The translations under genes were made by a program, and so were the position numbers. DNA of 64,000 nucleotides. It comes from Patescibacteria group bacterium (GTDB lineage Bacteria; Patescibacteriota; Microgenomatia; UM-FILTER-40-11). The notes below the pieces were generated by a model, which was given only the letters and a program-made list of their open reading frames with translations, made no database searches and had not been told where the DNA came from. The stretch spans positions 103,348 through 167,347 of the forward strand of contig DATKVM010000002.1 in assembly GCA_035530075.1 (NCBI GenBank), in the 5' to 3' direction. Position 1 is the stretch's first letter; every line of letters starts with the position of its first letter. Shown here in pieces: positions 1,941 through 62,295 of this stretch.

Positions 1941-3556
1941 TGAACCGTTTCTCCTTCCTTGTTAAAAATTTCTTCGGCGAACTTAATTATATCATCGTCC
2001 TTCCCTTCTGCAACTTTCATCGTCTTTCCCGGTTTAGCCAAATTGACTTCCGATGGAAAATTATCCAAAACCGGCAATGGTTTTACCGGCCGTGAGGCCT
2101 CACTTAAACTGCATTTCAGCTTAATCGGCACCCCTAAAACCTCGCTGGCCACTTTTTCAAAAATCCGGCGGCATTTTTCCGACTCCAATTGATCTTTATG
2201 AAATTTATAAAAGACTTCCAGCATTAGAAAACCACCATCAATTGCCAGCGGCCGGCAAGCTTTTAAAAAGGCTTGAACCGAGTGATTAAGAGGTTTAACT
2301 TTTCCCAAGATTTCCGGCCATTTAACCAAAACACTCTCTAATGTTAATAAGGGCGAAGCCGCACTGGCGGGAATTCTTTCTCCATCAGGTTTTTCTTCCG
2401 CCTTTGCCAAAGCTCCCTTCGGGGAATTCCTGCTCTGGGAATCATTACTTTCATCCCCCGAGAGACTGCCCCGGCCGGACGGGTTGGCCAGGGAAGACCA
2501 TTCAACTACTGCCATTTCCAAAGGCAACGAAGGGATAACTGCCTGACGCAACTCTTGATAAGCGGTATTAAAAAGACTGATAAGCTGGCGAATTTCTTCT
2601 CGGCTAAAACTAAATTTCATTTCTCCTTCATCATCGACCCCAAAATCCGCCAAAAGCAAAGCTCTTAATTTCTCCAGCAATTCTTCCGTTAGGATTTTTA
2701 AATTGGCTCCTTGTTCGGTTGCTCGGCCCAGCCAAAGGAGGGCTTCTTTAATCCCCCCTTCTTCTAATAATTTCAAGAATTCTTCAACTTTAAATTCGGC
2801 TAAAATGCCGGCAGTATTTTTGACTTCCTCCTCAGTTATCTTACCGGCCAGCGCCGCTCTTTCCAAAATCTTAATAGCGTCACGAAAACTCCCGTCCGCG
2901 AGTTTGGCAATCGTCGCCAAAGCCTTTTCTTCATAGTCCAATTTCTCCTCCTCGCATATCTTTTTTAATCTCTCGACGATTTCCGGCCGGTTTGCCCGTT
3001 TAAAATTTATCTGCTGACAACGGGAAACAATCGTTTTGGGGAGTTTCTCCGGATCAGTAGTGCAAATAATAAAAAGAGCGTGAGCCGGCGGTTCTTCCAA
3101 AGTCTTTAAAAGAGCGTTAAAGGCTTCGGTCGTTAGCATATGGACTTCATCAATAATATAGACCTTATATTTTGCCCTCGCCGGCGCCAGCCTAATTTTT
3201 TCCCGCAGTTCTTTAATATCGTCAATTCCCCGGTTACTGGCGGCATCAATCTCTAAAACATCAATATTTGTTCCGTTGGTTATCGAAATACAAGAATCGC
3301 ACTGGTTACACGGCTCAAAGGTCTTCTCTCCCTGTGATACTTTTGATGCTTCTGATACCTTTGATACCTTCTCACAGTTCACTGCTTTCGCCACAATTCT
3401 GGCCGCTGAAGTTTTACCAATCCCCCGGGGGCCAGTGAATAAAAAGGCATGAGGAAACTGGCTGGAGCGGAAAATCTTAATCAGTTCCTCTCTAACAGCG
3501 CTACTGTCCAGTTCCTGGAAACTCTGAGGCCGGTATTTGAGATATAGAGTCGTCAC
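1937..3556 (-). CDS. dnaX: DNA polymerase III subunit gamma/tau
   Basis: N-terminal YRPQSF, Walker A GPRGIGKTS, DExx IIDEVHML, SRC motif and a zinc-module (CEK...CNQCDSC). The zinc module is interrupted by a KVSKVSEASKVSQ low-complexity insert encoded by a GATACNTTT repeat. Confidence 0.9.
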   Translation of the reverse strand: MTTLYLKYRPQSFQELDSSAVREELIKIFRSSQFPHAFLFTGPRGIGKTSAARIVAKAVNCEKVSKVSEASKVSQGEKTFEPCNQCDSCISITNGTNIDVLEIDAASNRGIDDIKELREKIRLAPARAKYKVYIIDEVHMLTTEAFNALLKTLEEPPAHALFIICTTDPEKLPKTIVSRCQQINFKRANRPEIVERLKKICEEEKLDYEEKALATIAKLADGSFRDAIKILERAALAGKITEEEVKNTAGILAEFKVEEFLKLLEEGGIKEALLWLGRATEQGANLKILTEELLEKLRALLLADFGVDDEGEMKFSFSREEIRQLISLFNTAYQELRQAVIPSLPLEMAVVEWSSLANPSGRGSLSGDESNDSQSRNSPKGALAKAEEKPDGERIPASAASPLLTLESVLVKWPEILGKVKPLNHSVQAFLKACRPLAIDGGFLMLEVFYKFHKDQLESEKCRRIFEKVASEVLGVPIKLKCSLSEASRPVKPLPVLDNFPSEVNLAKPGKTMKVAEGKDDDIIKFAEEIFNKEGETVQ

Positions 3557-3920: not shown

Positions 3921-4052
3921 GGTTGGGTGTCAACTATAAATTTTTACTAACAAAGTATATCAGTCATTTTTTAAGAGATTGTTTCTTGTTCAATTGTTCT
4001 TTCCCCACCTTTCCAAGATCAAGCAACAAAACCATGAAGCAATGAAGCAATG

Positions 4053-21677: not shown

Positions 21678-22474
21678 TTGGCTTTGCCCTCCGTTGCTTT
21701 TTTACCCGTCGTAGCTTTAGTAGAGGCGGGAGCGGAGGAGGACCTTTCTTCCTTCCCTTCCTCAACTTTTAACTTTAAACTTTTAACTTTTAACTGCTTC
21801 TGTCCTTCCTCTATCGCTGATCTTATCGCCCCAACAATTAATTGTAAACACTTAGAGGCATCATCATTGGCGGGAATAATAAAGTCAACATCTTCCGGAT
21901 TGGCATTCGTATCGACAATGGCGACTGTCTTTACCCCTCGGATTCGGGCTTCTTTCAAAGCGCCGGCGTCCTTTCGGGCATCCGTCACAAAAATGGCCGC
22001 CGGGATTTCCCTCATTTCGGCCACGCCGCCAAAAATTCGCTCCATCTTGTTAATCTCCCGCTTAATTAAAAGATTCTCTTTTTTAGTCCGATCCTTAAAG
22101 CGCCCCTCGGCGACACCCACCTTTAGGTCAGCCAAATACTCCAGCCTCTTTTTAATCATCCCCCAATTGGTCAAAAGCCCCCCAACCCAACGCTCGATAA
22201 TATGAGGCGCTCCCACTTTCTTCGCCTCCTCTTCCACAATCTCCTGCGCCTGGCGCTTGGTCCCGACAAAAAGAATTTGGCCGCCCTGGCTGGCGGTAGC
22301 TTTAACGAAGGCAACGGCAGCCTCCAGACCTTCCTTAGTCTTGACCAAATCAAAAATATGAATCCGCCCCCGAGCCGTAAAAATATACGGCTTCATCTTC
22401 GGGTTCCAACGAGTCGTTTGGTGACCAAAATGGCACCCAGCCTCCAGTAATTCCTTTAAGGATATATCTTTCAT
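21674..22474 (-). CDS. rpsB: 30S ribosomal protein S2
   Basis: LLEAGCHFGHQTTRWNPKMKPYIF...HIFDL and the rest of the bS2 fold, with a Lys/Glu-rich C-terminal tail. Confidence 0.9.
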   Translation of the reverse strand: MKDISLKELLEAGCHFGHQTTRWNPKMKPYIFTARGRIHIFDLVKTKEGLEAAVAFVKATASQGGQILFVGTKRQAQEIVEEEAKKVGAPHIIERWVGGLLTNWGMIKKRLEYLADLKVGVAEGRFKDRTKKENLLIKREINKMERIFGGVAEMREIPAAIFVTDARKDAGALKEARIRGVKTVAIVDTNANPEDVDFIIPANDDASKCLQLIVGAIRSAIEEGQKQLKVKSLKLKVEEGKEERSSSAPASTKATTGKKATEGKAK

Positions 22475-33448: not shown

Positions 33449-35488
33449 CTACTTTGAGGCAGGCTTTCGCCAAGAAGCAAAATCGCACTTCGGCCAGTTA
33501 GCGCAACCATAAAAACCCTTGCCCTTCTTGGTTTTTTTATAGACAATTTCACCGCCACATTTAGGACACTGCATTCCCTCAATCTTTTTGACATAAGGCG
33601 CTCGCCAGTCACATTCCGGAAAACGGCTGCAGGATAAAAATTTACCAAAGCGACCAATTCGGATAACCACCGACCCCGTTTTGCATTTCGGACAAGCTTC
33701 CCCCGTCGCTTCCACCTGGACGGCCACTCGCTGGGCGACCCGTTTAACCCCTTCCAGCTTCTCCGCAAAAGGCTTCCAAAACTCTCGTAAAACTGGAACT
33801 CTTTCTTTTTGGCCATTGGCAATTTCGTCCAAATTGTCTTCCATTTTAGCCGTAAATTGATAATCCAAGATGTCCGGAAAATATTCCAGCAAAAATTCGG
33901 TGACGGCTACCCCCAAGGCCGTGGGGACAAACTGACGGTCTTGTTTTTCAACATAATTCCTATCCTGAATAGTGGAAATCGTCGGCGCATAAGTAGAAGG
34001 TCGACCAATACCCAACTCTTCCAAAGTTTTAATAAGGGAGGCTTCATTAAAACGCGGCGGGGGTTGAGTGAACTTCTGTTCCGGTTTAACCTCTAAAAGT
34101 TTAAGCTCATCCCCGGCAAAAACTGCCGGCAAACTTTCGATTTTATTCCCCTCTTCGTCCGTTTCTTCCGTCTTGCCGTAAACTTTACGCCAACCGTCAA
34201 ACTTTTCCTGGGCTCCTTTAGTTTCCAGTTGATAAATATTTTTCCCGCCGTCCGCCTGGATAGTCAGAGTCGTAATTTCCGCTATTGATTGGGCCATTTG
34301 GCAAGCAACAAACCGCTTCCAAATTAAGTCATATAACTTCTCTCCATCGGCACCCATTTTGAACTTTGAACTTTGAACTTTGAACTGGACGTCCGTAGGA
34401 CGGACGGCTTCGTGGGCCTCTTGAGCTGATTTGCTTTTGGTGGCAAAAAAACGGGGCTTTTCGGGCAAATAATTTTCCCCATAAGTCTTTTTAATAAAAT
34501 TGCGGACGCTATTAACTGCCTCCATCGCTAAGTTAGTCGAGTCGGTCCGGTGATAAGTGATTAAACCGTTCTCATAAAGACCCTGAGCAACATTCATCGT
34601 TTTTCTAGATGACCAACCCAAACGGTTCGCAGCCGCTTGCTGTAAAGTCGAAGTCGTAAAGGGAGCGGTGGGATTCCTTTTAAATTCCTTTTGGTCAACC
34701 GAGGCAACTTCATATCCCGCTTTCTTAAGTTCGCCAACGATTTCCTCGGCGGCTACTCCGTCTTTAATTTCAATTTTCTCGCCATTTTTTCTAACCAGTT
34801 TGGCCAAAAATCGAGGAGCATCGGCCAAGTCACTGCCAACCAACTTTTGAAGCAGCGTTTCAATTTCCCAAAACTCCACTGGAGCAAATTTCTCAATCTC
34901 TTTTTCGCGTTCAACAATTAAACGCACCACGACTGATTGAACTCGACCGGCCGAAAGACCACGGCGAATTTTTTGCCATAAAAGTGGGGAGAGTTTATAA
35001 CCGACCAGCCGGTCCAAAACCCGCCGGGCGACTTGAGCTTCGACTAAGGCCATATTAACCGTCCCCGCTTTTTCTAAAGCGGTTTCGATGGCTGTCTGTG
35101 TAATCTCATGGAAGGTGATACGGGAGATTGGGATATTAGGAGATTGGGATATTAAGCCATTTTTTTGTTTCTTTGCCCTTAAGATCTTCGTATCTTTTTC
35201 TCTCAATATCTCCCCGACATGCCAGGCAATCGCCTCACCCTCCCGATCCGGGTCGGTCGCCAAATAAACCTTCTCCGCTTTTTGGGCGGCTTTTTTAAGC
35301 TTAGCAATGTCTTCCTGTTTCCCCTCCACGACGGTGTAATCCGGAGCAAAGGTTTCGACATCTACCCCCAGTTTTTTCTTCGGCAAATCTCGAATGTGGC
35401 CCATGGTTGCTTCAATTTGGAACTTTTTGTCTAAAAATCGACTAAGAGTTTTAGCCTTAGTGGGTGATTCAACGATAATTAAATCCAT
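33449..35488 (-). CDS. topA: DNA topoisomerase I
   Basis: Toprim domain (MDLIIVESPTKAKT...IRDLP), catalytic Tyr region (GLITYHRTDS) and two C-terminal C4 zinc ribbons (CPKCKTG..., CPKCGGE...). In-frame repeat inserts (ISQSPNIPIS; SSKFKVQSSKFK) are present. Confidence 0.9.
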   Translation of the reverse strand: MDLIIVESPTKAKTLSRFLDKKFQIEATMGHIRDLPKKKLGVDVETFAPDYTVVEGKQEDIAKLKKAAQKAEKVYLATDPDREGEAIAWHVGEILREKDTKILRAKKQKNGLISQSPNIPISRITFHEITQTAIETALEKAGTVNMALVEAQVARRVLDRLVGYKLSPLLWQKIRRGLSAGRVQSVVVRLIVEREKEIEKFAPVEFWEIETLLQKLVGSDLADAPRFLAKLVRKNGEKIEIKDGVAAEEIVGELKKAGYEVASVDQKEFKRNPTAPFTTSTLQQAAANRLGWSSRKTMNVAQGLYENGLITYHRTDSTNLAMEAVNSVRNFIKKTYGENYLPEKPRFFATKSKSAQEAHEAVRPTDVQFKVQSSKFKMGADGEKLYDLIWKRFVACQMAQSIAEITTLTIQADGGKNIYQLETKGAQEKFDGWRKVYGKTEETDEEGNKIESLPAVFAGDELKLLEVKPEQKFTQPPPRFNEASLIKTLEELGIGRPSTYAPTISTIQDRNYVEKQDRQFVPTALGVAVTEFLLEYFPDILDYQFTAKMEDNLDEIANGQKERVPVLREFWKPFAEKLEGVKRVAQRVAVQVEATGEACPKCKTGSVVIRIGRFGKFLSCSRFPECDWRAPYVKKIEGMQCPKCGGEIVYKKTKKGKGFYGCANWPKCDFASWRKPASK

Positions 35489-35568
35489 ACAATTTAAGAT
35501 TGTTTCATCAATTAGCCGAAAAATGCAACCGGTAATTTATTTGCTTACTACTCACTACTTACTACTTG

Positions 35569-36678
35569 CTACTTAATCCCGTACATTCCTTCCCCAAAGT
35601 TCTTTATTATACCGCGGAGTTCCAAAATTGAAAGTATGCTTCCTAACCGACCACTTTCTATTTTCAGTTTTCTGGCAATTTCATCAATATGCTGATTTTC
35701 ATTCTCCAAAATTTCCACAATCTTTAATTCATCTCCGGCTAACTCCTCCTTTGATACCTTTGATACTTTTGATACTTTTGATACTTTTGATACCTCCATA
35801 TTCAGCTCTTCCAAAATATCCTCCACACCATTTACCAGCTTGGCCCCTTTTTTAATTAACTCGGCGGTTCCCGCCGAAAGAGGTGAAGTAATCGGGCCGG
35901 GAACGGCAAAAACCTCTCGACCTTGCTCAGCGGCACAAGAGGCGGTTATAAGTGAGCCGCTGTCCTCGGCCGCTTCTGTCACCACCACCCCCAAAGACAA
36001 ACCGCTAATAATCCGATTTCTGGCTGGAAAATTTCCCGGCACTGCCTGCATCCCTAAAGGAAATTCGCTAATAATCGCCCCACCGGCCGCCACAATTCTT
36101 TCAGCCAAGTCTTTGTGTTCCGGTGGATAAATTAAATCCAAACCGCAACCCAAGACCGCGATTGTCAGACTGCCGTTGAGAAGAGCCGTTTCGTGGGCAA
36201 TCCGATCAACTCCCCGGGCCAACCCCGAAACTATCATTAAACCGGCTCCCGCCAGCCCCTCAGTTATTATTTCCGTCACTTGTCGTCCGTAAGCGGTTAC
36301 TTTCCTCGTTCCGACAACAGCGACCGCCTTTTTACTCAAAAAACCCAGTTCTCTTTGTCTGCTCTTGACGTATAAAACGGGAGGGCTACCTGCTATTTCT
36401 TTTAGCAGTTTCGGGTAATTTTCTTCTTCGGCAAAAGTTACCTTTATTCCTTTTTGCTCCAGCCGAAGGAAATACGAATTGCCGTCGAAGCTTTGCCGGA
36501 AAGAAAGAAAATTTCCTACTAGTTTCTCCCCTAACCCAATTTCCCTCAAACTTTTTTCCGGGGCGACAAAGGCCCTTTTAGCGGAACCAAAATAATCCAA
36601 AAGCAATTTGAACCTTACCGGCCCAATCCCCTGGAAAACACTAAACGCCAACCAAGCTTTCTTCTCTTCTAAGTCCAT
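35569..36678 (-). CDS. dprA: DNA processing protein DprA/Smf
   Basis: SAM-like N-terminus (GIGPVRFKLLLDYFGS), Rossmann core (VVGTRKVTAYGRQ...GLARGVDRIAHE...) and a C-terminal winged helix. A (KVS)5 in-frame repeat precedes the WH domain. Confidence 0.85.
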   Translation of the reverse strand: MDLEEKKAWLAFSVFQGIGPVRFKLLLDYFGSAKRAFVAPEKSLREIGLGEKLVGNFLSFRQSFDGNSYFLRLEQKGIKVTFAEEENYPKLLKEIAGSPPVLYVKSRQRELGFLSKKAVAVVGTRKVTAYGRQVTEIITEGLAGAGLMIVSGLARGVDRIAHETALLNGSLTIAVLGCGLDLIYPPEHKDLAERIVAAGGAIISEFPLGMQAVPGNFPARNRIISGLSLGVVVTEAAEDSGSLITASCAAEQGREVFAVPGPITSPLSAGTAELIKKGAKLVNGVEDILEELNMEVSKVSKVSKVSKVSKEELAGDELKIVEILENENQHIDEIARKLKIESGRLGSILSILELRGIIKNFGEGMYGIK

Positions 36679-40417: not shown

Positions 40418-42511
40418 ATGAAGCTCGATGCCTTTTTCCAAAAAACAATCGCCTGGCTTTTTCCAATTCTTTTCTTTCTAGTACCCCTTTTCTTCACTCC
40501 TTATAATTCCGAACTTTTCGAATTCAATAAAATGCTTTTGGTTTACGCCTTCACCATTCTCATAGTCGGTGCCTGGTGCGCCCGGATGATTGGTCAAAAA
40601 AGGCTCATTTTCCAAAAAACCCCTCTGGACTGGCCCCTTTTAATTTTCTTAATTTCTCAATTTTTAAGTTTTTTACTTTCCATTGACCGGCATACCAGTC
40701 TCTGGGGATATTATTCCCGGTTTAACGGTGGCCTTCTATCCGTAATTGCTTATCTGCTTCTCTATTGGGCGTTTATCAGCAATTGCCAAACCAAGGATGT
40801 CCATAAAATTATTAAAGCTTCTCTAGCGGCTGGCTTAATTATTTCTTTTTATGGCATTCTGGAGCATTTCGGACACTCTTTCAGTTGTCTTTTATTCGAG
40901 GGAAAGTTTAATGTCGATTGTTGGGTTCAGGATGTTCAGGCTCGCGTTTTTGCCACCCTAGGCCAACCCAATTGGCTGGCCGCTTACCTAGCCGTCCTTA
41001 TTCCTATCGCCATCGTTTATCTTCTTTGGGCCAAAAACAAAAGGAACTTTGCTTACTATTTAATACTTAATGCTAGCTACTTTGCTTGTCTTCTCTTCAC
41101 CGGCTCCCGCTCCGGTTTTTTGGGTCTGGTTACTGCCCTCGGTGTTTTGGGAATATTTATTTTTCTCTTCTATCGCCGAAACTTCCGTCCTTTTCTTCGT
41201 CCCTGCTTAATACTTACTACTAACTACTTGCTACTAATCGTTATTTTCGGCTCACCTTTTTCTCAAATTAATCGCTATTTGCCCCGTTGGTCATTTTTGC
41301 CAGAAAAAGCGGTCCCCGCGGTCACGGTCGGAACTCAATTGGAAACTGGGGGGACAGAATCAGGAAAAATCCGCCAAATAGTTTGGCAAGGGGCCTGGGA
41401 AATCTTTCGCCACTACCCGATTTTTGGATCTGGAGTGGAAACTTTTGCCCATTCTTACTACAATTTTCGGCCAGTGGCTCATAATACTGTATCAGAATGG
41501 GATTTTCTGTATAATAAGGCTCATAACGAATACCTTAATTATCTCTCCACGACCGGGATTGTCGGCTTAGGAGCTTACCTTTTCTTCATTGGCTGGTTTA
41601 TTACCCAGACCGTATCCAGGTTTAAAAAGGAACTGACTTCTTCCGATAACCTTAATCCTTACTCCTTAATACTGGCTACTTTCTGCGGTTGGCTTTCCAT
41701 CCTTGTTTCTAATTTTTTTGGCTTTTCCGTCGTCATTATCTCCCTGTATTTTTATCTCATCCCCGCTTTCATTTTCGTCCTTTCTCGCCCGCCAACTGCC
41801 AGCGACCAACCATCTCTACCCTTCACTCTTAGCCGTAAAATTTTGTTTCTCGTCCTCCTGCTTACTACTTTCTACTTACTACTGACTACTATTAATCTCT
41901 GGCGGGCAGATTTCTTTTATTCACTGAGTCAGAAATATAGCAAACAAAATCAATATGTTTCATCTTATCAAAACATAACAAAAGCTATCGAAATTGCTCC
42001 GAGAGAACCGATTTTTCTTAACGAACTTTCCTCGGTCGCCGCCAATTTAGCGATTCTGGCGGCAGAAGAAAAGAAGGCCAGCATGGCTGCCGAATTAACG
42101 ACGGTGGCTATCCATTCAAGCAAAGCCGCTTTAGAAATAAGTCCTACCAATCTTAACTTTGGGAAAACTCAAGTGCGAGTTTTTTATTTGCTTTCCGCCC
42201 TCGATCCTAATTATCTTGAAGAAGCGATTAATAGTCTTCGGGCGGCGATTAGTTTTGCCCCCACCGACCCGAAATTGGTTTACAATTTAGGACTTTTGAC
42301 GGCTAAAGCCGGCCAGACTAAAGAAGCCCTCGCGATAATCGAGAAGGCCGTTGAACTCAAGCCTAACTATGAAGAAGCGCACCGGACTCTGGCACTTTTT
42401 TATGAAGAATTAGGCAATAATCAAGATGCAATTAAACAGCTAGAAGCTATTCTAAAACAAAAAGGGTCCGATCCGGAAATTGAAGCCGAAATCGAAAAAC
42501 TGAAGAAGTAG
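40418..42511 (+). CDS. O-antigen ligase (Wzy_C)-like polytopic membrane protein with a C-terminal TPR domain
   Basis: Multiple TM helices, FTGSRSGFLG and H.HNEYLNYLSTTGIVG signatures of the O-antigen ligase family, and C-terminal TPR repeats (KAVELKPNYEEAHRTLALFYEELGNNQDAI). Confidence 0.65.
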   Translation: MKLDAFFQKTIAWLFPILFFLVPLFFTPYNSELFEFNKMLLVYAFTILIVGAWCARMIGQKRLIFQKTPLDWPLLIFLISQFLSFLLSIDRHTSLWGYYSRFNGGLLSVIAYLLLYWAFISNCQTKDVHKIIKASLAAGLIISFYGILEHFGHSFSCLLFEGKFNVDCWVQDVQARVFATLGQPNWLAAYLAVLIPIAIVYLLWAKNKRNFAYYLILNASYFACLLFTGSRSGFLGLVTALGVLGIFIFLFYRRNFRPFLRPCLILTTNYLLLIVIFGSPFSQINRYLPRWSFLPEKAVPAVTVGTQLETGGTESGKIRQIVWQGAWEIFRHYPIFGSGVETFAHSYYNFRPVAHNTVSEWDFLYNKAHNEYLNYLSTTGIVGLGAYLFFIGWFITQTVSRFKKELTSSDNLNPYSLILATFCGWLSILVSNFFGFSVVIISLYFYLIPAFIFVLSRPPTASDQPSLPFTLSRKILFLVLLLTTFYLLLTTINLWRADFFYSLSQKYSKQNQYVSSYQNITKAIEIAPREPIFLNELSSVAANLAILAAEEKKASMAAELTTVAIHSSKAALEISPTNLNFGKTQVRVFYLLSALDPNYLEEAINSLRAAISFAPTDPKLVYNLGLLTAKAGQTKEALAIIEKAVELKPNYEEAHRTLALFYEELGNNQDAIKQLEAILKQKGSDPEIEAEIEKLKK

Positions 42512-42571: not shown

Positions 42572-43657
42572 ATGGCCGAATCACTTTTGTATAAAGAATT
42601 GGGGGGCAAAAAGATTCGCTGTCAGGCCTGCCAAAGAGAGTGCCTTATCAGCGACCAGCAAGTCGGTTTTTGTTTAGCCCGGCAAAATTTAGGCGGGGCT
42701 TTGGCTTCTCTGCTTTACGGCCAAATCACCGGCATTCAAGTTGACCCAATTGAAAAAAAACCTTTTTATCATTTTAAGCCGGGTTCTTTGGTGGCAACTA
42801 TCGGCTCCTGGGGCTGCAATTTCCGCTGCAAACAATGTCTCAATTTTGCCCATTCTTGGGGAGCAACCGAAGAGTTAAAAAGATTAAAAGAAGAAAGAGG
42901 GAAAGGCAAAATCACCAAAACCAAAGCGGCGGAGGAAATTGCTCAAACTATCGTTAATGGAGGTTATGCCGGCATCGCTTTTTCCTACAACGAGCCGACA
43001 ATTTGGGCAGAGTTTGCCAACCAAATTGCCCACGAATTTAAATCGTCTACTAACCGACTAACCAACCAACCCCCTAACAAACCATTTTGTGTCTTTGTCA
43101 CTAACGGCTCCTGGACTAAAGAAACCATTGACCTTTTAGCTCCCAATATTGACGCTGCCAATATCGACCTTAAAGGCTTTTGTGAAGAAACTTATCGGAA
43201 AATGGGGGCCTACTTAGGAATTATCCCGGAAATGGCGGTTTATGCTCAAAAGAAAGGGATTTTTTTAGAACTTACGACTTTGCTTATCCCCGGCATTAAT
43301 GATGACCCGGATGAGTTAAAAGACCTGGCGAATTGGATCGTCAAAGATCTGGGCCCGGATACCCCTTGGCATCTTTCTCAATTCGACCCCCAACTGGCTC
43401 CCGACCCCGAGTTTCAAAAAATTCCCTTTACTACCGCTCAAGAATTAAAACACGCCGCTTCCATCGGCGAAAAAGCCGGCCTGCACCACATTTATATTTG
43501 GGGCCCGGAAGCGGGATGCAATCGTTCCGACACTCTTTGTCCCAATTGCCGCAATATTGTTATTCGCCGCAACGGCGGCTGGCAGCCGAAAGAAATAAAA
43601 ATTAAAAAAAACCACCATTGTCAATTTTGTAACTTTAAGCTTAACGTTGTTCTCTAA
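42572..43657 (+). CDS. Radical SAM enzyme of the AmmeMemoRadiSam (AmrS) / PflA-like activase type
   Basis: N-terminal CxxC...C...C, then VDPIEKKPFYHFKPGS and the CNFRCKQC (Cx3Cx2C) cluster. An additional C-terminal Cys cluster is present (CPNCRN...HHCQFCN). Confidence 0.65.
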   Translation: MAESLLYKELGGKKIRCQACQRECLISDQQVGFCLARQNLGGALASLLYGQITGIQVDPIEKKPFYHFKPGSLVATIGSWGCNFRCKQCLNFAHSWGATEELKRLKEERGKGKITKTKAAEEIAQTIVNGGYAGIAFSYNEPTIWAEFANQIAHEFKSSTNRLTNQPPNKPFCVFVTNGSWTKETIDLLAPNIDAANIDLKGFCEETYRKMGAYLGIIPEMAVYAQKKGIFLELTTLLIPGINDDPDELKDLANWIVKDLGPDTPWHLSQFDPQLAPDPEFQKIPFTTAQELKHAASIGEKAGLHHIYIWGPEAGCNRSDTLCPNCRNIVIRRNGGWQPKEIKIKKNHHCQFCNFKLNVVL

Positions 43658-45948: not shown

Positions 45949-46835
45949 ACGGAACAATAATAACCATGAAACAATTGAAAATCGTCTTTTTCGGCACCTC
46001 CCCCTATTCCGCTCAATTTTTAGACTTAGTCACTAAAAACGGCTTGAAAATTGACCTGGTGGTTGCCGCTCCACCAAAACCAATAGGCCGAAAACAAGTC
46101 TTGACGGAAAACTCCGTAGTTTTATTAGCCAAAGAGTTGAATATTCCTTTCATCACTGATTCAAAAGAATTAACAATGAGGCAATTGAACAATGAAGCAA
46201 TCGGCCTCATCCTCGACTATAACCGTCTTATTCCCCCATCCATCATTAACTTATTTCCTCAAGGGATTATCAACATTCATTTTTCTAAACTACCGCAATA
46301 TCGTGGCCCGGCCCCGGTTCAAGCAACCATACTTCACGGCGATAAGAAAGCCTGGATTTCTTATTTTTTAATCTCTGAAAAGCTGGACGAAGGCCCAATT
46401 TTAGCTCAAACTTCTCTTGGGCTTGAGAGAACAGAAACAACCGGCACTCTCTATCAAAAATTAGTCGCTAAGGCCGCCAAGGAAATATCCCAAATCGTGA
46501 CCGACTACCTGAATAACAAAATTATCCCAAAACCCCAATTCGGGCCTTCTTCGGATACTAAAAAACTAACGACTAAGGAGGCCAAAATCGACTGGAATCG
46601 GCCGGCGGAGGAAATTGAAAGGTTAATTCGAGCCGCTAGTCCCGAACCGGGAGCCTGGACGGAAATTCGACTGAAAACTCAAAACTTAAAACTGAAAATC
46701 CTTAAAGCTCACTTGGAAAATAACCGCTTAATTCCGGACACGGTTCAACTGGAAGGCAAAAATCCGGTCTCTTGGAAACAGTTTCAAGAGGGTTACCCGG
46801 GAGGAAAATTAAGCAACTCCAATTACCGTCTTTGA
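45945..46835 (+). CDS. fmt: Methionyl-tRNA formyltransferase
   Basis: N-terminal Rossmann (KIVFFGT), HFSKLPQYRGPAPVQ (the SLLPxxRG motif) and a C-terminal OB-like domain. Carries an in-frame LTMRQLNNEAIG insert. Confidence 0.85.
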   Translation: MNGTIITMKQLKIVFFGTSPYSAQFLDLVTKNGLKIDLVVAAPPKPIGRKQVLTENSVVLLAKELNIPFITDSKELTMRQLNNEAIGLILDYNRLIPPSIINLFPQGIINIHFSKLPQYRGPAPVQATILHGDKKAWISYFLISEKLDEGPILAQTSLGLERTETTGTLYQKLVAKAAKEISQIVTDYLNNKIIPKPQFGPSSDTKKLTTKEAKIDWNRPAEEIERLIRAASPEPGAWTEIRLKTQNLKLKILKAHLENNRLIPDTVQLEGKNPVSWKQFQEGYPGGKLSNSNYRL

Positions 46836-47910: not shown

Positions 47911-47980
47911 GGGGGGACGAAGTCCCTGTACCAAGTTGGCACAGAGCAGTCCACCCACCTGGGTTTCCCAGGGAATAGCG
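47911..47980 (+). ncRNA. Structured RNA-like element, copy 1 (unclassified)
   Basis: Three predicted hairpins: GGGAC-GAA-GUCCC, CUGUACC-AAGUU-GGCACAG and CCUGGG-UUU-CCCAGG. About 85% identical to copy 2 at 48159..48228, with partly compensatory substitutions in hairpin 2. Non-coding. Confidence 0.35.
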
Positions 47981-48158: not shown

Positions 48159-48228
48159 TGGGAGGACGAAGTCCCTGTACCATAATGGTCCAGGGCAGTC
48201 CACCCACCTGGGTTTTCAGGGGAAAGCA
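48159..48228 (+). ncRNA. Structured RNA-like element, copy 2 (unclassified)
   Basis: Same three-hairpin architecture as copy 1 (GGAC-GAA-GUCC; CUGUACC-AUAAU-GGUCCAG; CCUGG-GUUUU-CAGGG). Lies about 60 nt downstream of a consensus promoter. Confidence 0.35.
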
Positions 48229-52796: not shown

Positions 52797-53645
52797 ATGA
52801 TTGATACTCACGCCCACCTGAATTTTCCCTCGCTCTTGGAGCAGATTGAAAAAGTGGTAGCGGAAAGCCAAAAAGCCGGTATTACCGGGATTATCATTGC
52901 CGGTAGCCGTATAAAAGACTCTGCTTGTGCCGTTGAGCTGGCCCAAAAATACCCCGGCTACCTTTTTGCCTCAGTCGGTATCCATCCCCACAAGACTGAT
53001 CCAGAAAATCAGATGCCAATTGAAGAACAACTTCAGTCTCTTGAACGTCTAATACTTGACGCTAAACGCTCTCCCCTAGACGCTATCGTTGCTATCGGCG
53101 AGACCGGCCTTGATTTTTCCCTGGCTCCACCAGGCAACGAAGACCGACCAAAAGAAGAACAAATTAGGTTATTCCAGGAGCATATCAAGCTGGCTCAAAA
53201 ATATAATCTCCCACTCATAATTCACGCCCGGGAAGCAGTCGACGAAGTAATCGAAATCCTAACAATGAAACAATGGAACAATGAAGCAATGAAGGGCGTT
53301 TTCCACTGCTACGCCGGCGGCCGCAAAAGAATTCAGAAAATTTTAGATTTAGATTCCCCTGATACTTTTGACACTTCTGATACATCTGATACCTTTCCTC
53401 ATTGGTATTTTGGCTTTGACGGCAATTTAACTTACGATGAAGGCCTTCAAGCAGTCGTAAAATTAATCCCGCCGGAGCGGATTTTGATTGAAACCGATAG
53501 TCCTTTCCTGGCCCCGGTCCCCCATCGCGGCGAGATTAACACCCCGGCTTATTTGCCCTTAATTCAAGAGAAAATAAATGAAATTCTCGGCCAGGATTTG
53601 ACCAAACAAATCGAAAAGAATACCCGAAAGCTTTTCAATTTTTAA
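52797..53645 (+). CDS. tatD: TatD-family metal-dependent hydrolase
   Basis: MIDTHAHLN, the GIHPH region, VFHCYAGG and ETDSPFLAP. Contains in-frame inserts TMKQWNNEAMKG and DTFDTSDTSDTF. Confidence 0.8.
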   Translation: MIDTHAHLNFPSLLEQIEKVVAESQKAGITGIIIAGSRIKDSACAVELAQKYPGYLFASVGIHPHKTDPENQMPIEEQLQSLERLILDAKRSPLDAIVAIGETGLDFSLAPPGNEDRPKEEQIRLFQEHIKLAQKYNLPLIIHAREAVDEVIEILTMKQWNNEAMKGVFHCYAGGRKRIQKILDLDSPDTFDTSDTSDTFPHWYFGFDGNLTYDEGLQAVVKLIPPERILIETDSPFLAPVPHRGEINTPAYLPLIQEKINEILGQDLTKQIEKNTRKLFNF

Positions 53646-57486: not shown

Positions 57487-57541
57487 CCATCAGTAACCAG
57501 TAGATAGTGGCTAGCAAAACATACTATCTCCTCCCTAACTA

Positions 57542-58279
57542 CTATCTACTAACTACTTTTTCTTTAAGCACCAGGAAGGGAAAAACCACTACCGCATTCC
57601 AAACCCTTTTCCAGTGTCCGGGGCGCTGTAATCCCCGCCAAAGCCATTCTAAACCTAATTGACGCATCTTGGCCGGAGCGCGCTCCGTAAAACCAGTGAG
57701 AAAGTCTAAGCCCCCACCGATCCCCAGAAAAACCGCTGCCTTTATTTTGCCTCTATTTTTCATAATCCAGCGCTCCTGTTTACCCATTCCCTGACAAGCC
57801 AAAACCATTTCAAATCTCAAATCTCTAATTTCTAATTTCGGCTTATCGAGATTAACGGCCGTTAACCCCGGATACCTTATTTCTAGCCTTTTAATTAATT
57901 CTTCTGCCTCGCTCTCCTCTCCCCGGCGGGCACCGGCTATTCCCACGGCCCATTTTTCTTTATTGCCAATCGAAAGCAGCTTCGCGACTAAGTCGGCGCC
58001 AGAAATTCTTTCGGGCAATGGCTGGCCGAGAAATTTGGATAACCATATCAGACCGAATCCATCGGCAACGTTAAGATCGGACTGATTAAGAAGCTGACGA
58101 AAGGTCTCGTCACCGTTAGCAGCGACTAAGAACTCCGAATTGGGGGTAAAAACCACTCTCCTTTCTGGCCTCGGTTTAGCCACAAAACTTAGAATTTCGC
58201 TTAGCACTTCGACAAGCTCAGTGCTATTTATTCTTACTTTTAAAATCACGGCGATATTTCGGCTCATTCTTACTGTCAT
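57542..58279 (-). CDS. WecG/TagA/CpsF-family glycosyltransferase
   Basis: VVFTPNSEFLV, DGFGLIW, GIAGARRGE, QERW and GLEWLWRGLQRP are family signatures. A KLEIRDLRFE insert is encoded by a TCTAATTTCTAATTTC-type repeat. Confidence 0.7.
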   Translation of the reverse strand: MTVRMSRNIAVILKVRINSTELVEVLSEILSFVAKPRPERRVVFTPNSEFLVAANGDETFRQLLNQSDLNVADGFGLIWLSKFLGQPLPERISGADLVAKLLSIGNKEKWAVGIAGARRGEESEAEELIKRLEIRYPGLTAVNLDKPKLEIRDLRFEMVLACQGMGKQERWIMKNRGKIKAAVFLGIGGGLDFLTGFTERAPAKMRQLGLEWLWRGLQRPGHWKRVWNAVVVFPFLVLKEKVVSR

Positions 58280-60000: not shown

Positions 60001-62295
60001 ATGGTCGAGAAAATGAGAAAAAACTCTTGCCAAGGCGCAATTCCTTTCATACCCCTAATAGTCATCGCAGTTGTTCTGGTTGTCATCCCAGCCACCGTCA
60101 AACTAGTCCAAGAAAGACAAAAAACTAGCCCCGAAGCTACAGGAGAAATTTGTCCTCAGGCTGGAGCTTCTTGCAGCGATACCTACCCAGAAAGCTGTAA
60201 CAATGGCACCGGAACAAGGATCTGTCATAAGAGTGGTACTTGTTCCGGAGTCGGAGGAGGAGTAAGGTGCTCTTGGGGACCAGGCTCTTATTGCGAAAAC
60301 TGTAGCAGTGGTGGACCAACTGTCCCTCCTTATGCTACGCCCACCCCTCGACCACAACCAACCGCTACCCCCATACCCACCTCTTCTCCAACTTGTAGAG
60401 GAAGCGGTTCTTATTGTGGAGCCGGAGGAAACTGTTGTCCGGGACTTGAATGTCATGGATATGCACAAGTTTGTGTTCCCATTCCCACCAGTACTCCCAA
60501 ATCACAACCAACCGCTACCCCCATACCCACCTCTTCTCCAACGTTAGATTGTCCGTATACTGGACTGTCTGTTTGCAAAATCGCTTGTGGCACGACTACA
60601 TGTGATATCCTCAATGGTTGCTATGTTTGCCCAAATCTGATTCCACCAACCACTCCCATTCCTCCAACCGCCACTCCTAAGCCAATAAACACTCCCGTTC
60701 CTCATGAATGTAGTCGGGCAGAAGATTGTGCTGGCAGTGGCAGATGCAACCTGTCTTGTTCAGGTTGGCCAAGAAAGTGCTCCTGGACGGCTTGTCCAAT
60801 CATACCTACTCTCCCTCCTCAAACTTGTTCCAACCCTGCCGCCAACCCTGGGTCTAAAACTTGCAAAGACAACGATGTCTATATTTGTAAATCCCAATAC
60901 GGAAGTGTTTTTTGGGATATTTATCAAGACTGTGGCCCAAGAGGCTGCAGTAATGGTGTTTGCAACCCGACTCTTGTCAGTACTCCCAAGCCACAACCGA
61001 CCGCCACCCTAATCCCCCAAACTTGTCGGGATTCGAGGGAATATTGTGGAGATGGAACTCCTTGTTGTCCAGGATTTTCTTGCCAAGGCCTCTACTGTCT
61101 AACCGCTTCTACTAACCCTACTCCAACCACTACCTCCTGCACTTATTCTACCCAAAACCTCTGTAGACAAGCCTGCTGGACATCCTGTTCGTATACCGAC
61201 GGCTGTTGGAATTGTCCTGAGAATATTCCTATCCAGAACCCCACTCCCACCTCCGGCACTTTCCACGGCTGCAAGAATCCTGACGCAAAGCCTGGAGAAA
61301 AAACCTGCAAAGACAACGATGTCTATACTTGTAAAAGTTTCGTTGGATTATATTTTTGGGAAATCTACGAAAACTGCCTGGGACAGGGGTGCAATAAAAA
61401 CAGTTGTAACTCACCCGCATCTTCCCCGGAAAACACCTGTTTTTCCCCCTCTAAGTGTGTCCCTAAAACAGTTGGATGTGGAATGTTAGGTAAAGAAACT
61501 GAAGACAAGAACTGCGGCAATCCTAACTATACTTGTTGCGGTAAATTGACCGAACCTCCACAACCTTCGCCCACCCCAACATTGGCCCTTGCGCCCACAG
61601 TAACTCTGGTTCCGACAAGAGTCTCCCAACCTACGATTCCTTATTTGTTTACTTCCACTCAAGAGACTGCAGACTTACTAGAGGTAACCAAACAATTCAA
61701 TGCTGCCAAAAATAGCAATATCACTATCATTCTTGTTGGTCCAAACTCAACTGCCGAGAATGATAAAAAAATTTATGAATTCTTAAACGCTCATGACTGG
61801 GTCGCTATGACTCACGAAGATCTTCCTATAACAAGGAATTACAGTTGCGCTCCTCAATGCCAATTCTGGAATGTAGAGAAGTTAACCACGGCAGGATATT
61901 ACGATAAAGGAACAATTGCTGCTGTTTTTAACCATGAGGCTGTTCATAATCGTCAAGCCACAAATGATCCGTATTTAGCGGAACATGTCAGAGAAGGACC
62001 AGACAAATTTGTCTATCAAGCACTTATCGAAGGAGAAGCAGAGGAATCTGGCTGGGAAGTAGGTGGCCAACACTATACCCTATACCGCCAGTTCCATGAG
62101 GAAGTCAGTGTTTGGGCAAAAAACAAGGGGTTGGAAGACTTGTTCCAAAATGCCGCCAATGGGCACTGGGGAGACTTTCAAAAACTAAAATCTAAATATT
62201 TCGAGACAGAGGGCCATAGTTTGACAGAGCTTGTGAAATACCGATGCGATAGTCTTGCCCAAAACCAAAGAGGCGAACACAAAAATTGTATCTAA
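60001..62295 (+). CDS. Cys-rich modular secreted/anchored protein with a C-terminal putative zincin-like (HExxH) domain
   Basis: N-terminal TM/signal helix, then multiple Cys-rich modules separated by PT-rich linkers (TPTPRPQPTATPIPTSSPT twice; KTCKDNDVY.CKS...FW.IY..C...GC module twice). The C-terminal ~230 aa carry FNHEAVHNRQ followed by EGEAEE. Confidence 0.5.
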   Translation: MVEKMRKNSCQGAIPFIPLIVIAVVLVVIPATVKLVQERQKTSPEATGEICPQAGASCSDTYPESCNNGTGTRICHKSGTCSGVGGGVRCSWGPGSYCENCSSGGPTVPPYATPTPRPQPTATPIPTSSPTCRGSGSYCGAGGNCCPGLECHGYAQVCVPIPTSTPKSQPTATPIPTSSPTLDCPYTGLSVCKIACGTTTCDILNGCYVCPNLIPPTTPIPPTATPKPINTPVPHECSRAEDCAGSGRCNLSCSGWPRKCSWTACPIIPTLPPQTCSNPAANPGSKTCKDNDVYICKSQYGSVFWDIYQDCGPRGCSNGVCNPTLVSTPKPQPTATLIPQTCRDSREYCGDGTPCCPGFSCQGLYCLTASTNPTPTTTSCTYSTQNLCRQACWTSCSYTDGCWNCPENIPIQNPTPTSGTFHGCKNPDAKPGEKTCKDNDVYTCKSFVGLYFWEIYENCLGQGCNKNSCNSPASSPENTCFSPSKCVPKTVGCGMLGKETEDKNCGNPNYTCCGKLTEPPQPSPTPTLALAPTVTLVPTRVSQPTIPYLFTSTQETADLLEVTKQFNAAKNSNITIILVGPNSTAENDKKIYEFLNAHDWVAMTHEDLPITRNYSCAPQCQFWNVEKLTTAGYYDKGTIAAVFNHEAVHNRQATNDPYLAEHVREGPDKFVYQALIEGEAEESGWEVGGQHYTLYRQFHEEVSVWAKNKGLEDLFQNAANGHWGDFQKLKSKYFETEGHSLTELVKYRCDSLAQNQRGEHKNCI

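What the first reader, a model, noticed from the sequence alone, without database searches (positions are those of the whole stretch)
53260..53293. Shared ~30-bp CAATGAAG-type repeat giving homologous peptide inserts in Fmt and TatD, plus an intergenic copy
fmt (46171..46202, TAACAATGAGGCAATTGAACAATGAAGCAATC) and tatD (53260..53293, TAACAATGAAACAATGGAACAATGAAGCAATGAAG) carry near-identical DNA segments. These encode LTMRQLNNEAIG and LTMKQWNNEAMKG, inserted into otherwise unrelated enzymes. A third copy (CATGAAGCAATGAAGCAATG, 4033..4052) is intergenic. The nucleotide identity between unrelated genes argues for a mobile or recombinogenic short element, not convergent protein evolution.
Basis: seen in the sequence. 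Interest (0 to 1): 0.55.

Follow-up and report, generated by a model that had tools for sequence, protein, structure and literature searches.

The report
Octamer tandem repeats inside housekeeping genes
The 30-bp segment shared by fmt and tatD is a short tandem array of an 8-base repeat, one of many 7-9-base arrays in this candidate-phyla-radiation genome that are translated as harmless loop peptides; it belongs to a known but still unexplained class of bacterial repeat.

Summary

All three are arrays of about 2.4-4 units of one octanucleotide, (RRCAATGR)n. They are not discrete inserts. Because 8 and 3 share no factor, every reading frame of such an array encodes the same cyclic octapeptide, MKQ-stop-NNEA/T. 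The "homologous peptides" are therefore an automatic by-product. The residue at the would-be TGA codon is the only freely variable one (W, L, S, C, F, Y; all TNN codons).

The window holds 16 arrays of 7-9-nt units against 0.4 in shuffles. Thirteen of the 17 arrays examined lie inside ORFs. At least three unit families recur at unlinked loci.

In relatives, the same tatD loop carries an 8-mer, a 9-mer or a 7-mer array. The same octamer family also sits in frame in a thioredoxin-reductase-like gene of a 65% GC Uhrbacteria-like genome.

AlphaFold models place the peptides in surface loops. Net length change is small, and in Fmt there is none.

Dispersed four-unit hepta- and octanucleotide arrays are already described in Geobacter, cyanobacteria, Beggiatoaceae and Xanthomonas. 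This is a new member of that kind. How arrays spread between loci is unresolved.

The parts
53260..53293 (+). Octamer array (AACAATGA)x4.1 inside tatD. It encodes LTMKQWNNEAMK, residues 155-166: the end of a helix plus the loop before a beta strand.
46171..46202 (+). Partly decayed octamer array (x3.5) inside fmt. It encodes LTMRQLNNEAI: a short helix plus the loop before strand beta-4 of the N-terminal domain.
4021..4052 (+). Intergenic copy of the octamer family (exact x2.4 at 4034-4052). It begins immediately after the stop of minus-strand yqeY and lies 113 nt upstream of ybeY.
52797..53645 (+). Host gene tatD (TatD-family hydrolase, PF01026).
45966..46835 (+). Host gene fmt (methionyl-tRNA formyltransferase). 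The gene caller of the source record starts it at the MKQLK methionine.
53359..53392 (+). Second array in tatD: 9-mer (CTGATACTT)x3.8. It encodes PDTFDTSDTSDT, a true ~16-aa insertion relative to PDB 1j6o and a disordered loop (pLDDT below 50).
3335..3372 (+). Same 9-mer family, read on the minus strand inside dnaX as EKVSKVSEASKVS.
35748..35795 (+). Same 9-mer family (x5.3), read on the minus strand in the DprA inter-domain linker as EVSKVSKVSKVSKVSKE.
46670..46698 (+). Second array in fmt: 7-mer (ACTGAAA)x4.1 at a beta-hairpin turn of the C-terminal domain. L124 carries (AAAGTGA)x4.7 at the same site.
35544..35575 (+). Heptamer family (CTTACTA)x4.6, overlapping and following the stop of minus-strand dprA. 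Other copies lie at 57535-57557 (3' end of the wecG-like gene) and, more weakly, at 41206-41235 and 41861-41890 in the Wzy-like gene.
34358..34386 (+). Perfect heptamer array (TTTGAAC)x4.1 inside topoisomerase I, read on the minus strand as QFKVQSSKFK. It is an example of a young in-frame array.
21764..21795 (+). Heptamer array (AACTTTT)x4.6 just after the S2 domain of ribosomal protein S2 (minus strand).

Best explanation
The shared segment is a short, partly decayed tandem array (about 3.5-4 units) of the octanucleotide RRCAATGR. It is one of several dispersed 7-9-nt short-tandem-repeat families in a Patescibacteria (CPR) genome that is unusually rich in such arrays.

Shown:
- The arrays are a DNA-level feature.
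- The same unit families recur at unlinked loci and in both coding orientations.
- They persist in tolerant places: the 3' ends of genes, intergenic spacers, and surface loops or turns of conserved enzymes, where they are simply translated.
- Because 8 and 3 share no factor, every frame of (CAATGAAR)n encodes the same cyclic octapeptide, MKQ*NNE(A/T). Two unrelated enzymes therefore acquire 'homologous' peptides automatically.
- The one in-frame TGA per 24 nt has been replaced by a sense TNN codon.

Inferred:
- Arrays grow by slipped-strand or template-switch replication errors that add whole units. Inside ORFs only frame-preserving outcomes survive, for example one seed plus three units, which fits the prevailing 4.x copies.
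- New arrays of an existing family are seeded either on short pre-existing motifs or by short-patch templated copying from another array.
- The loops turn over, so orthologs carry different families at the same site.
- The peptides have no specific function. They are tolerated linker sequence.
For: Repeat structure and excess:
- TRF periods are 8/8/8. Motif counts are 9 against 0.84 expected and 8 against 0.92 expected.
- The window has 16 arrays with period 7-9 and at least 3 copies, against a mean of 0.4 in 30 dinucleotide shuffles.
- Array density per 10 kb is 2.5 in the window, 5.9 in clade loci, 3.0 in more distant CPR Fmt loci and 3.4 in Uhrbacteria-like loci, against 0.2 in one 50-kb E. 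coli control.

Families:
- 8-mer at 3 loci, 9-mer TGATACYTY at 3 loci, 7-mer CTTACTA at 3 or more loci.
- The 9-mer is read as KVS in dnaX and dprA on the minus strand and as DTF/DTS in tatD on the plus strand.

Translation logic:
- All three frames give the same cyclic peptide with one stop.
- Among the 15 true motif occurrences (two further regex hits are unrelated sequences), the residue at the stop position is only W, S, C, L, F or Y.
- A perfect (AACAATGG)x4.5 array gives TMEQWNNGTME in L218.

Orthologs:
- The same tatD loop carries (AACAATGA)x4.1 in the window, (TAAGTAACT)x3.4 in L124 and (ACGATTC)x4.4 in L125.
- The 9-mer CTTAAGTRA family occupies the fmt loop in L132, L140, L141 and L143 and the tatD loop in L124.
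- The DprA linker has a different repeat in L124.
- Array-bearing TatDs are 68-72% identical to each other, yet each has array-less neighbours at 80-87%.

Other hosts of the octamer family:
- The Fmt C-terminal hairpin in P0199.
- A TrxB-like hairpin in 63-65% GC Uhrbacteria-like genomes, including a 28-mer identical to the window's.

Structure:
- AF2 models (pLDDT 90 and 92) place the arrays in alpha-to-beta loops or hairpin turns.
- Length change relative to PDB homologs is small.

Precedent:
- Multicopy families of four tandem hepta- or octanucleotides, between and within genes, occur in Geobacter metallireducens (PMC2700814).
- TAACTGA arrays are described in PMC4679880.
- GGGNATC arrays with a preference for four units are described in PMC4692102.
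Against: - Pure local slippage does not explain why the same unit recurs at unlinked loci, in different genes and in two CPR classes. It also does not explain how an AT-rich array (32% GC) arose in a 65% GC gene.
- The arrays fill whole loops without the expected length gain. This needs either accompanying deletions or replacement events that I did not observe directly.
- The fmt array region is the longest exact nucleotide match (38 nt) between the window and L124 in a gene that is 77% identical overall. This hints at some DNA- or RNA-level constraint or at recent homogenisation.
- All copies of each family in the window are co-oriented on the + strand. A neutral tolerated-junk model does not predict this.
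- The clustering at 4.x copies is also seen in intergenic arrays of other bacteria (PMC4692102), so frame preservation may not be its cause.
- No strain-level copy-number variation was seen: P0001, at 99% identity, has identical arrays.
Confidence: 0.7

Rival explanations
1. A discrete micro-mobile element. On this view the ~30-nt arrays, or larger elements of which they are remnants, are copied or transposed between loci, and horizontally between CPR lineages, by a dedicated or hijacked enzymatic mechanism. They would insert preferentially into a few target loops.
For: - An identical 28-mer, CAATGAAACAATGGAACAATGAAGCAAT, sits in frame in an unrelated gene of a 65% GC genome from another CPR class.
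- The same two families occupy the same two loops in different genomes.
- The octamer array shows at least three apparent independent gains in the tatD loop.
- Arrays in relatives flank nested GC-rich palindromic mini-inserts on both sides: L124 fmt, L131, L136, L133 and L124 dprA.
- All family copies in the window are co-oriented.
Against: - The window arrays have no terminal inverted repeats, conserved ends or recognisable target duplications.
- Copy number and unit variants differ between copies, as expected of tandem repeats.
- Many different unit families exist, which would need many target or template specificities.
- No transposase or reverse transcriptase was noticed near the arrays.
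- Viral contigs carry only simple intergenic arrays.
Confidence: 0.2
2. Independent, motif-driven expansion in place. On this view each array grew separately by slippage from a short local seed containing a slippage-prone or nick-prone core such as CAATG(A/G). Nothing is transferred between loci, and family resemblance reflects the sequence preference of the process.
For: - In a genome scan that stopped at its 120-locus limit, (CAATGANN)n arrays occur in Acidobacteriota, Bacteroidota and others. Each array has its own NN but the same core.
- A 6-nt seed would occur by chance even in a GC-rich gene.
- Perfect arrays of about 4-5 units exist inside ORFs.
- Mrazek et al. 2007, as summarised in PMC4679880, proposed polymerase-dependent slippage favouring units of about 7 nt.
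Against: - It requires a separate propensity for every recurrent family (CTTACTA, TGATACYTY, CTTAAGTRA and others).
- It does not explain loops being entirely overwritten without length gain.
- The scan pattern itself fixed CAATGA, so its enrichment over other cores was not measured.
Confidence: 0.3
3. Functional elements. On this view the arrays are binding sites for a global regulator or RNA-binding protein, or the encoded peptide is a selected functional module shared by the enzymes.
For: - Similar four-unit arrays were annotated as putative global regulator sites in Geobacter (PMC2700814). A role as translational regulator sites was suggested in Beggiatoaceae (PMC4679880).
- The window and L124 share a 38-nt exact run over the fmt array.
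- The array has persisted in fmt across lineages whose Fmt proteins are 74-78% identical.
Against: - Close orthologs replace the array with unrelated families or with none.
- The same DNA is read in different frames and on different strands.
- The peptides lie in low-confidence or disordered surface loops away from the catalytic face.
- No Rfam family matches.
- No partner protein was identified.
Confidence: 0.1
4. Chance low-complexity resemblance or an assembly artefact.
For: Tandem repeats inflate pairwise similarity. The contig is a MEGAHIT metagenome assembly.
Against: - Shuffle tests exclude chance.
- The identical Fmt and the 99%-identical TatD are found on independent contigs from several sources.
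- Orthologs from other samples carry the arrays at the same sites.
- The arrays, at about 30 nt, are shorter than the assembly k-mer.
Confidence: 0.02

Closest known systems
Multicopy 'four tandem heptanucleotide / octanucleotide repeat' elements of Geobacter metallireducens (Aklujkar et al. 2009, PMC2700814)
   Same: - Families of about four tandem 7- or 8-nt units are dispersed at tens of loci.
[quoted passage not shown] Here fmt and tatD each carry two arrays.
- Their function is unknown.
   Different: - The units are different and GC-rich (GGGACCG, GTTGCTYN).
- They were interpreted as regulator sites or RNA elements.
- No analysis was made of reading-frame consequences or of turnover at orthologous protein loops.
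- The phylum is different.
Long simple sequence repeats with 5-11-nt units (Mrazek et al. 2007, as summarised in PMC4679880), cyanobacterial STRR heptamers (from my own knowledge), TAACTGA repeats (PMC4679880) and GGGNATC repeats (PMC4692102)
   Same: - They are dispersed head-to-tail arrays of 7-8-nt units, often 2-6 copies with a mode near four.
- They are sporadic across phyla.
- Some units give stop codons in all frames in one orientation, so those arrays sit at gene ends.
- When they lie in ORFs they sit at the periphery of the protein.
   Different: - Those families are mainly intergenic. Here 13 of 17 arrays are inside conserved housekeeping ORFs of a compact CPR genome.
- One genome here holds several low-copy families rather than one dominant unit.
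- The same loop carries different families in close relatives.
Rickettsia palindromic elements and other in-frame MITEs (review PMC10969869)
   Same: Selfish repeat DNA is tolerated in frame inside unrelated housekeeping genes, adding family-specific peptides at structurally permissive sites.
   Different: - RPEs are ~150-bp palindromic elements that encode a conserved peptide.
- The arrays here are ~30 nt, non-palindromic and tandem-repetitive, and have no defined ends.
- True MITE-like palindromic inserts do occur at the same Fmt loop in some relatives (L146, P0181, P0201), but they are a different class.
Borg tandem repeats creating disordered regions (PMC9879509)
   Same: Recently formed tandem repeats lie within ORFs, are translated, and add disordered or loop sequence.
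   Different: - Borg repeats within ORFs all have unit lengths divisible by three and form perfect amino-acid repeats. Their sequences are virtually unique per locus.
- Here the 7- and 8-nt units are not divisible by three, and unit families are shared between loci.

Membership tests
Dispersed short-tandem-repeat families (LSSR 5-11 nt / STRR-like / Geobacter 4x hepta- and octamer elements) | Head-to-tail tandem copies of a 5-11-nt unit, at least about 3 copies | tested here: met
   TRF gives period 8 with x4.1 (tatD) and x3.5 (fmt). The intergenic copy has only x2.4.
Dispersed short-tandem-repeat families (LSSR 5-11 nt / STRR-like / Geobacter 4x hepta- and octamer elements) | The same unit recurs at several unlinked loci of one genome | tested here: met
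   There are three loci for the octamer, three for the 9-mer TGATACYTY and at least three for CTTACTA within 64 kb.
Dispersed short-tandem-repeat families (LSSR 5-11 nt / STRR-like / Geobacter 4x hepta- and octamer elements) | Arrays more frequent or longer than composition predicts | tested here: met
   The window has 16 arrays against 0.4 in shuffles. Density is 10-30 times that of one E. coli control region.
Dispersed short-tandem-repeat families (LSSR 5-11 nt / STRR-like / Geobacter 4x hepta- and octamer elements) | Predominantly intergenic location (typical of described families, not strictly defining) | tested here: not met
   13 of 17 arrays are inside ORFs. The Geobacter families are also reported within genes.
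Dispersed short-tandem-repeat families (LSSR 5-11 nt / STRR-like / Geobacter 4x hepta- and octamer elements) | Copy-number variation between strains | tested here: inconclusive
   The 99%-identical TatD P0001 has identical arrays. Orthologs differ in array length and perfection. No read-level data were available.
MITE / RPE-type in-frame palindromic elements | Terminal inverted repeats or overall palindromic structure | tested here: not met
   The array sequences read directly are purely direct repeats, and only direct-repeat families were recovered in the window.
MITE / RPE-type in-frame palindromic elements | Defined element of about 50-400 bp with conserved ends and target-site duplication | tested here: not met
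   The arrays are about 20-34 nt, have variable ends and fill the loop between conserved Leu and Gly codons.
MITE / RPE-type in-frame palindromic elements | In-frame presence in unrelated housekeeping genes, absent from orthologs | tested here: met
   Hosts are Fmt (two sites), TatD and a TrxB-like protein, with patchy distribution among orthologs.
Phase-variable contingency SSRs | Perfect repeats whose copy-number change switches a gene on or off, typically in surface or virulence genes, with strain-to-strain variation | tested here: not met
   The arrays are imperfect and lie in essential housekeeping genes, where a one-unit change would frameshift. No variation was seen at 99% identity.
Borg-type amino-acid tandem repeats | Unit length divisible by three, giving perfect amino-acid repeats | tested here: not met
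   The units are 8 nt, and 7 nt elsewhere. Only the 9-mer family meets this feature, as (KVS)n and (DTS/F)n.

The most novel reading that the evidence does not exclude
CPR bacteria may harbour an active, family-specific process that writes arrays of about 30 nt, made of 7-9-nt units, into the tolerant loops of essential genes and repeatedly overwrites them. Unit families such as (CAATGRAA)n would be shared across CPR classes. That would be a previously unrecognised micro-mobile element or templated-insertion mechanism, for example strand-biased short-patch copying at the replication fork or a footprint of a hairpin element. The same process could underlie the long-unexplained hepta- and octanucleotide arrays of other phyla.
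Probability: 0.2. Interest if true: 0.75.

Novelty: new member of a known kind. Interest (0 to 1): 0.45.

Why it matters
Dispersed four-unit hepta- and octanucleotide arrays have been noted since cyanobacterial STRRs (from my own knowledge) and in later genome surveys, without an accepted origin or function.

In CPR genomes most arrays sit inside conserved genes. Each gain, loss or replacement can therefore be placed precisely against orthologs and protein structure, which makes the mechanism approachable by comparative genomics.

There are also practical consequences:
- These arrays create lineage-specific peptides that can be mistaken for homologous inserts or motifs.
- They inflate apparent protein divergence in CPR.
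- They can mislead alignment, annotation and binning.

Tried and rejected
- **Rfam.** A scan of the window and seven array-bearing loci found only tRNAs.
- **Viral contigs.** Only simple intergenic (CAATGARA)n arrays turned up, with no sign of a phage vector.
- **Orientation versus replication.** All family copies in the window are on the + strand and GC skew is uniformly negative. In other clade loci most extra copies are orthologous positions, the 9-mer CTTAAGTRA is near-palindromic, and two heptamer copies are inverted. The result is inconclusive.
- **32-mer pair count.** A direct count of 32-mer pairs with at least 28 matches gave 13 clusters in the real window. It was too slow to repeat on shuffles, so I rely.
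- **Stop avoidance in tatD.** I first thought the TGG (W) in tatD was a stop-avoiding mutation. The CAATGAAA/CAATGGAA alternation also exists in intergenic arrays (L036, L047, L037), so for W this is not proven. The TNN-only pattern across orthologs still holds.
- **Contingency locus, CRISPR-like or DGR-like readings.** Rejected. The arrays are imperfect, lie in essential genes and have no associated machinery.
- **Literature.** Searches for CPR or Patescibacteria together with tandem or simple sequence repeats found no prior description.
Full report
**1. The observation**

The fmt segment 46171-46201 and the tatD segment 53260-53290 align without gaps at 90% over 31 nt (family D4). That is 28 of 32 identical bases.

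The 14-mer AACAATGAAGCAAT with up to 2 mismatches occurs 9 times in the window against 0.84 expected. None of 100 dinucleotide-preserving shuffles reached 9. A 16-mer gave 8 matches against 0.92 expected. All good matches are on the + strand.

Pfam confirms the hosts as methionyl-tRNA formyltransferase and a TatD-family hydrolase.

The third copy (4033-4052, extendable to 4021) is intergenic. It begins one base after the stop of the minus-strand YqeY gene and lies 113 nt upstream of YbeY.

The window comes from a 223-kb metagenomic contig (ENA ERZ27256810, k141_1140009). Public sources label the close TatD and Fmt homologs Patescibacteria or Microgenomates-group.

**2. What the segment is**

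Tandem Repeats Finder calls all three sites period-8 arrays:
- tatD: (AACAATGA)x4.1
- fmt: x3.5 (also period 16, x2.2)
- intergenic copy: x2.4

So the "30-mer" is a short tandem array of the octanucleotide RRCAATGR, not a unique sequence.

This explains the peptide similarity without any protein-level argument. Because 8 and 3 share no factor, all three reading frames of a perfect array encode the same cyclic octapeptide:
- (CAATGAAA)n gives MKQ*NNET.
- (CAATGAAG)n gives MKQ*SNEA.
- (CAATGGAA)n gives MEQWNNGT, with no stop.
- The reverse strand gives a hydrophobic LHCFIASL-type peptide.

The observed peptides are these translations:
- TMKQWNNEAMK and TMRQLNNEAI in the window
- AMKQSNNETIN and TMKQCNQATMK in other TatDs
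- TMKQSNNETIG, TMKQYNNATIG and TIKQFNNLTIG in other Fmts

Across the 15 true occurrences in my protein sets (two further regex hits are unrelated sequences), the residue at the would-be TGA codon is only W, S, C, L, F or Y. Those are exactly the six amino acids with TNN codons. The T of the CAAT core is kept and the stop is avoided.

**3. The window is full of such arrays**

The window holds 16 non-overlapping arrays with period 7-9 and at least 3 copies. Thirty dinucleotide-preserving shuffles gave a mean of 0.4.

Thirteen of the 17 arrays examined lie inside ORFs:
- DnaX
- ribosomal protein S2, C-terminal tail
- topoisomerase I, a perfect (TTTGAAC)x4.1
- DprA linker
- a Wzy-like membrane protein
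- a radical-SAM protein
- Fmt (two arrays)
- TatD (two arrays)
- a WecG-type glycosyltransferase

At least three unit families recur at unlinked loci:
- the octamer
- the 9-mer TGATACYTY at 3335, 35748 and 53359
- the heptamer CTTACTA at 35544 and 57535, with weaker copies in the Wzy-like gene

The 9-mer is translated as (KVS)n in the minus-strand dnaX and dprA genes. It is translated as DTFDTSDTSDT in plus-strand tatD. That is direct evidence that the repeats are a DNA phenomenon.

Every copy of each family in the window is co-oriented on the + strand, whatever the gene orientation. GC skew is uniformly negative. I could not test this properly elsewhere.

**4. Orthologs: hot loops with turnover**

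*TatD.* In an alignment of 36 TatDs, the stretch between ...EVIEIL and GVFHCY is length-hypervariable. At the DNA level the same loop carries three different arrays:
- window: (AACAATGA)x4.1
- syntenic relative L124 (82% core identity): (TAAGTAACT)x3.4, encoding LSTLSNLSDLRG
- L125: (ACGATTC/ACGGTTC)x4.4, encoding LRRFTVHDSRFTPHG

Two more distant TatDs, in L002 and L003, carry the octamer type at that site. The three octamer-bearing lineages are 68-72% identical to one another in the protein core. Each has nearest neighbours at 80-87% that lack the array. That means either at least three gains or heavy replacement.

*Fmt.* The window and L124 share the array. L124 has a nested 30-nt GC-rich insert within it. 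Other states of the loop:
- L125 has a short plain loop.
- L131 and L136 have the octamer array interrupted by small GC-rich insertions; the one in L131 (CCCGCCGAATCGGCGGG) is a hairpin.
- L132, L140, L141 and L143 carry (CTTAAGTRA)x3-4, the same family as the L124 tatD loop.
- L126, L130 and L133 carry other units.
- L146 carries a 66-nt palindromic MITE-like element.
- Fmt orthologs at 46% identity or less have an ordinary non-repetitive linker of similar length.

The DprA linker shows the same behaviour.

**5. Beyond the clade**

A pattern scan of one genome per species hit its 120-locus limit.

Most hits are intergenic (CAATGANN)n arrays in Acidobacteriota, Bacteroidota and others. Each array has its own NN. 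Many come as inverted pairs of arrays around a short spacer. The same loci are rich in other 7- and 8-nt arrays. Because my pattern fixed CAATGA, I cannot say this core is specifically enriched.

One hit matters more. L019 carries the identical 28-mer CAATGAAACAATGGAACAATGAAGCAAT in frame (AMKQWNNEAME) inside a thioredoxin-reductase-like gene at 65% GC. The record is labelled a Gammaproteobacteria MAG, but the best protein matches are Candidatus Uhrbacteria. An ortholog from an Uhrbacteria assembly (L218) has a perfect (AACAATGG)x4.5 at the same beta-hairpin, giving TMEQWNNGTME. Most orthologs have a short turn there.

The L019 genome also has perfect heptamer arrays of x4.4-5.0 inside its glutamate dehydrogenase and class-I tRNA-synthetase genes.

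Array density per 10 kb:

| Sequence set | Arrays per 10 kb |
|---|---|
| Window | 2.5 |
| Clade loci | 5.9 |
| More distant CPR Fmt loci | 3.0 |
| Uhrbacteria-like loci | 3.4 |
| One 50-kb E. coli control | 0.2 |

**6. Structural placement**

*TatD.* An AlphaFold2 model (pLDDT 90) puts residues 155-166 at the end of helix 148-159 and the loop before strand 167-169. In a TIM barrel these alpha-to-beta loops lie on the face opposite the catalytic one; that last point is established knowledge of the fold, not a tool result. The 9-mer peptide (188-199) is a disordered loop with pLDDT below 50. Against PDB 1j6o, the octamer site is only 2 aa longer and the 9-mer site is a 16-aa insertion.

*Fmt.* The model (pLDDT 92) puts the array in a short helix plus the loop before strand 78-83. 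The second array forms a hairpin turn in the C-terminal domain. Against PDB 4iqf, this Fmt segment is 5 aa shorter than canonical. "Insert" is therefore the wrong word for Fmt.

**7. Mechanism**

Shown:
- The origin is at the DNA level.
- The arrays are tandem repeats.
- Unit families are shared between loci.
- The arrays are confined to permissive positions.
- In-frame stops are avoided.
- There is turnover at orthologous sites.

Inferred: arrays grow by slippage or template switching. Within ORFs only frame-preserving products survive. One seed plus three units of 7 or 8 nt equals 21 or 24 nt, which matches the prevailing 4.x copies. However, intergenic arrays elsewhere also peak near four units (PMC4692102), so this inference is weak.

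How a family reaches a new locus is unresolved. There are three possibilities:
- Short-patch templated copying from another array.
- Motif-dependent expansion in place from CAATGR-type seeds.
- A dedicated micro-mobile mechanism.

The following point toward copying or a directed process:
- the identical AT-rich 28-mer in a GC-rich gene of another CPR class
- repeated occupation of the same loops by the same few families
- co-orientation of family copies
- the 38-nt exact match over the fmt array between genes that are 77% identical overall

The following argue against a classical element:
- the lack of any element-like ends
- the diversity of units

**8. Comparison with what is known**

TAACTGA arrays in Beggiatoaceae, cyanobacteria and Bacteroidetes include copies at ORF peripheries. 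Stop codons in all frames force one orientation to gene ends (PMC4679880). GGGNATC arrays in Xanthomonas and Nostoc prefer four units (PMC4692102).

Rickettsia palindromic elements are the classic case of in-frame selfish DNA (PMC10969869), but they are ~150-bp palindromes. Borg tandem repeats in ORFs have units divisible by three and are locus-unique (PMC9879509).

The present case is a member of the dispersed short-tandem-repeat kind. The features I did not find described are:
- its prevalence inside housekeeping ORFs of CPR genomes
- replacement of one family by another at the same protein loop
- sharing of one octamer family across CPR classes

Searches for CPR or Patescibacteria together with repeats returned nothing relevant.

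**9. Verdict**

The origin is DNA-level, but the segment is a tandem-repeat family rather than a demonstrated mobile insert. In Fmt there is no net insertion.
- It is ordinary in kind, with some features that deserve a genome-wide follow-up.

Noticed in passing
L004-L123 (e.g. L018 2218-2276, L079 5479-5506, L036 700-790): (CAATGANN)n octamer arrays are common in intergenic DNA of Acidobacteriota, Bacteroidota and other phyla. They often occur as an inverted pair, (NNTCATTG)n - short spacer - (CAATGANN)n, that could form a long imperfect hairpin. The same loci hold many other 7- and 8-nt arrays (234 period-8 and 155 period-7 arrays in 0.86 Mb). No Rfam family matches.
   Followed up: partly
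L124 10200-10260 (fmt) and the dprA linker; L131, L133, L136 and L146 fmt loops: Arrays in relatives are themselves interrupted by small GC-rich, partly palindromic inserts. Examples are CCCGCCGAATCGGCGGG and CCCAACTTCGCTAAGGCTTCGCTGGGCAAG, giving peptides such as PAESAG, SLKLRRAG and FAKASLGK. L146 carries a 66-nt MITE-like palindrome (GTCATTGCGAGG...CCTCGCGATGAC). The inserts are flanked on both sides by units of the host array.
   Followed up: partly
window 1-64000: GC skew is negative in every 4-kb block. All copies of each of the three recurrent repeat families lie in one orientation on the + strand, although their host genes are on both strands.
   Followed up: partly
window 46186-46223 vs L124: The longest exact nucleotide match between the window's fmt and its L124 ortholog (77% nt identity overall) is 38 nt. 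It covers the 3' part of the octamer array and the start of the next strand.
   Followed up: partly
L019 / L216 (CAZPCZ010000047.1): A contig deposited in a 'Gammaproteobacteria' MAG encodes a TrxB-like protein whose closest named relatives are Candidatus Uhrbacteria. The contig is probably mis-binned CPR DNA at 64-65% GC.
   Followed up: partly
window 47911-47975 and 48160-48224: Two 65-nt copies (85% identical) of a GC-rich sequence, GGGGGGACGAAGTCCCTGTACC...CCACCTGGGTTTCCCAGGGAA, lie 249 nt apart, just upstream of a tRNA cluster (tRNAs at 48341, 48688 and 50387). A further 35-nt repeat lies at 48723 and 48844.
   Followed up: no
window 60353-60392, 60503-60542, 60832-60891, 61276-61335: The 764-aa ORF 60001-62295 contains exact 40-nt and 83%-identical 60-nt internal repeats. 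It has no Pfam hit in the source record and is probably a protein with internal domain repeats.
   Followed up: no
window 43049-43082 vs L124 8034-8066: The radical-SAM gene carries (ACTAACCA)x4.2 in the window. At the orthologous position L124 carries (AACC)x8.2. This is a related but differently periodic array at one site.
   Followed up: no
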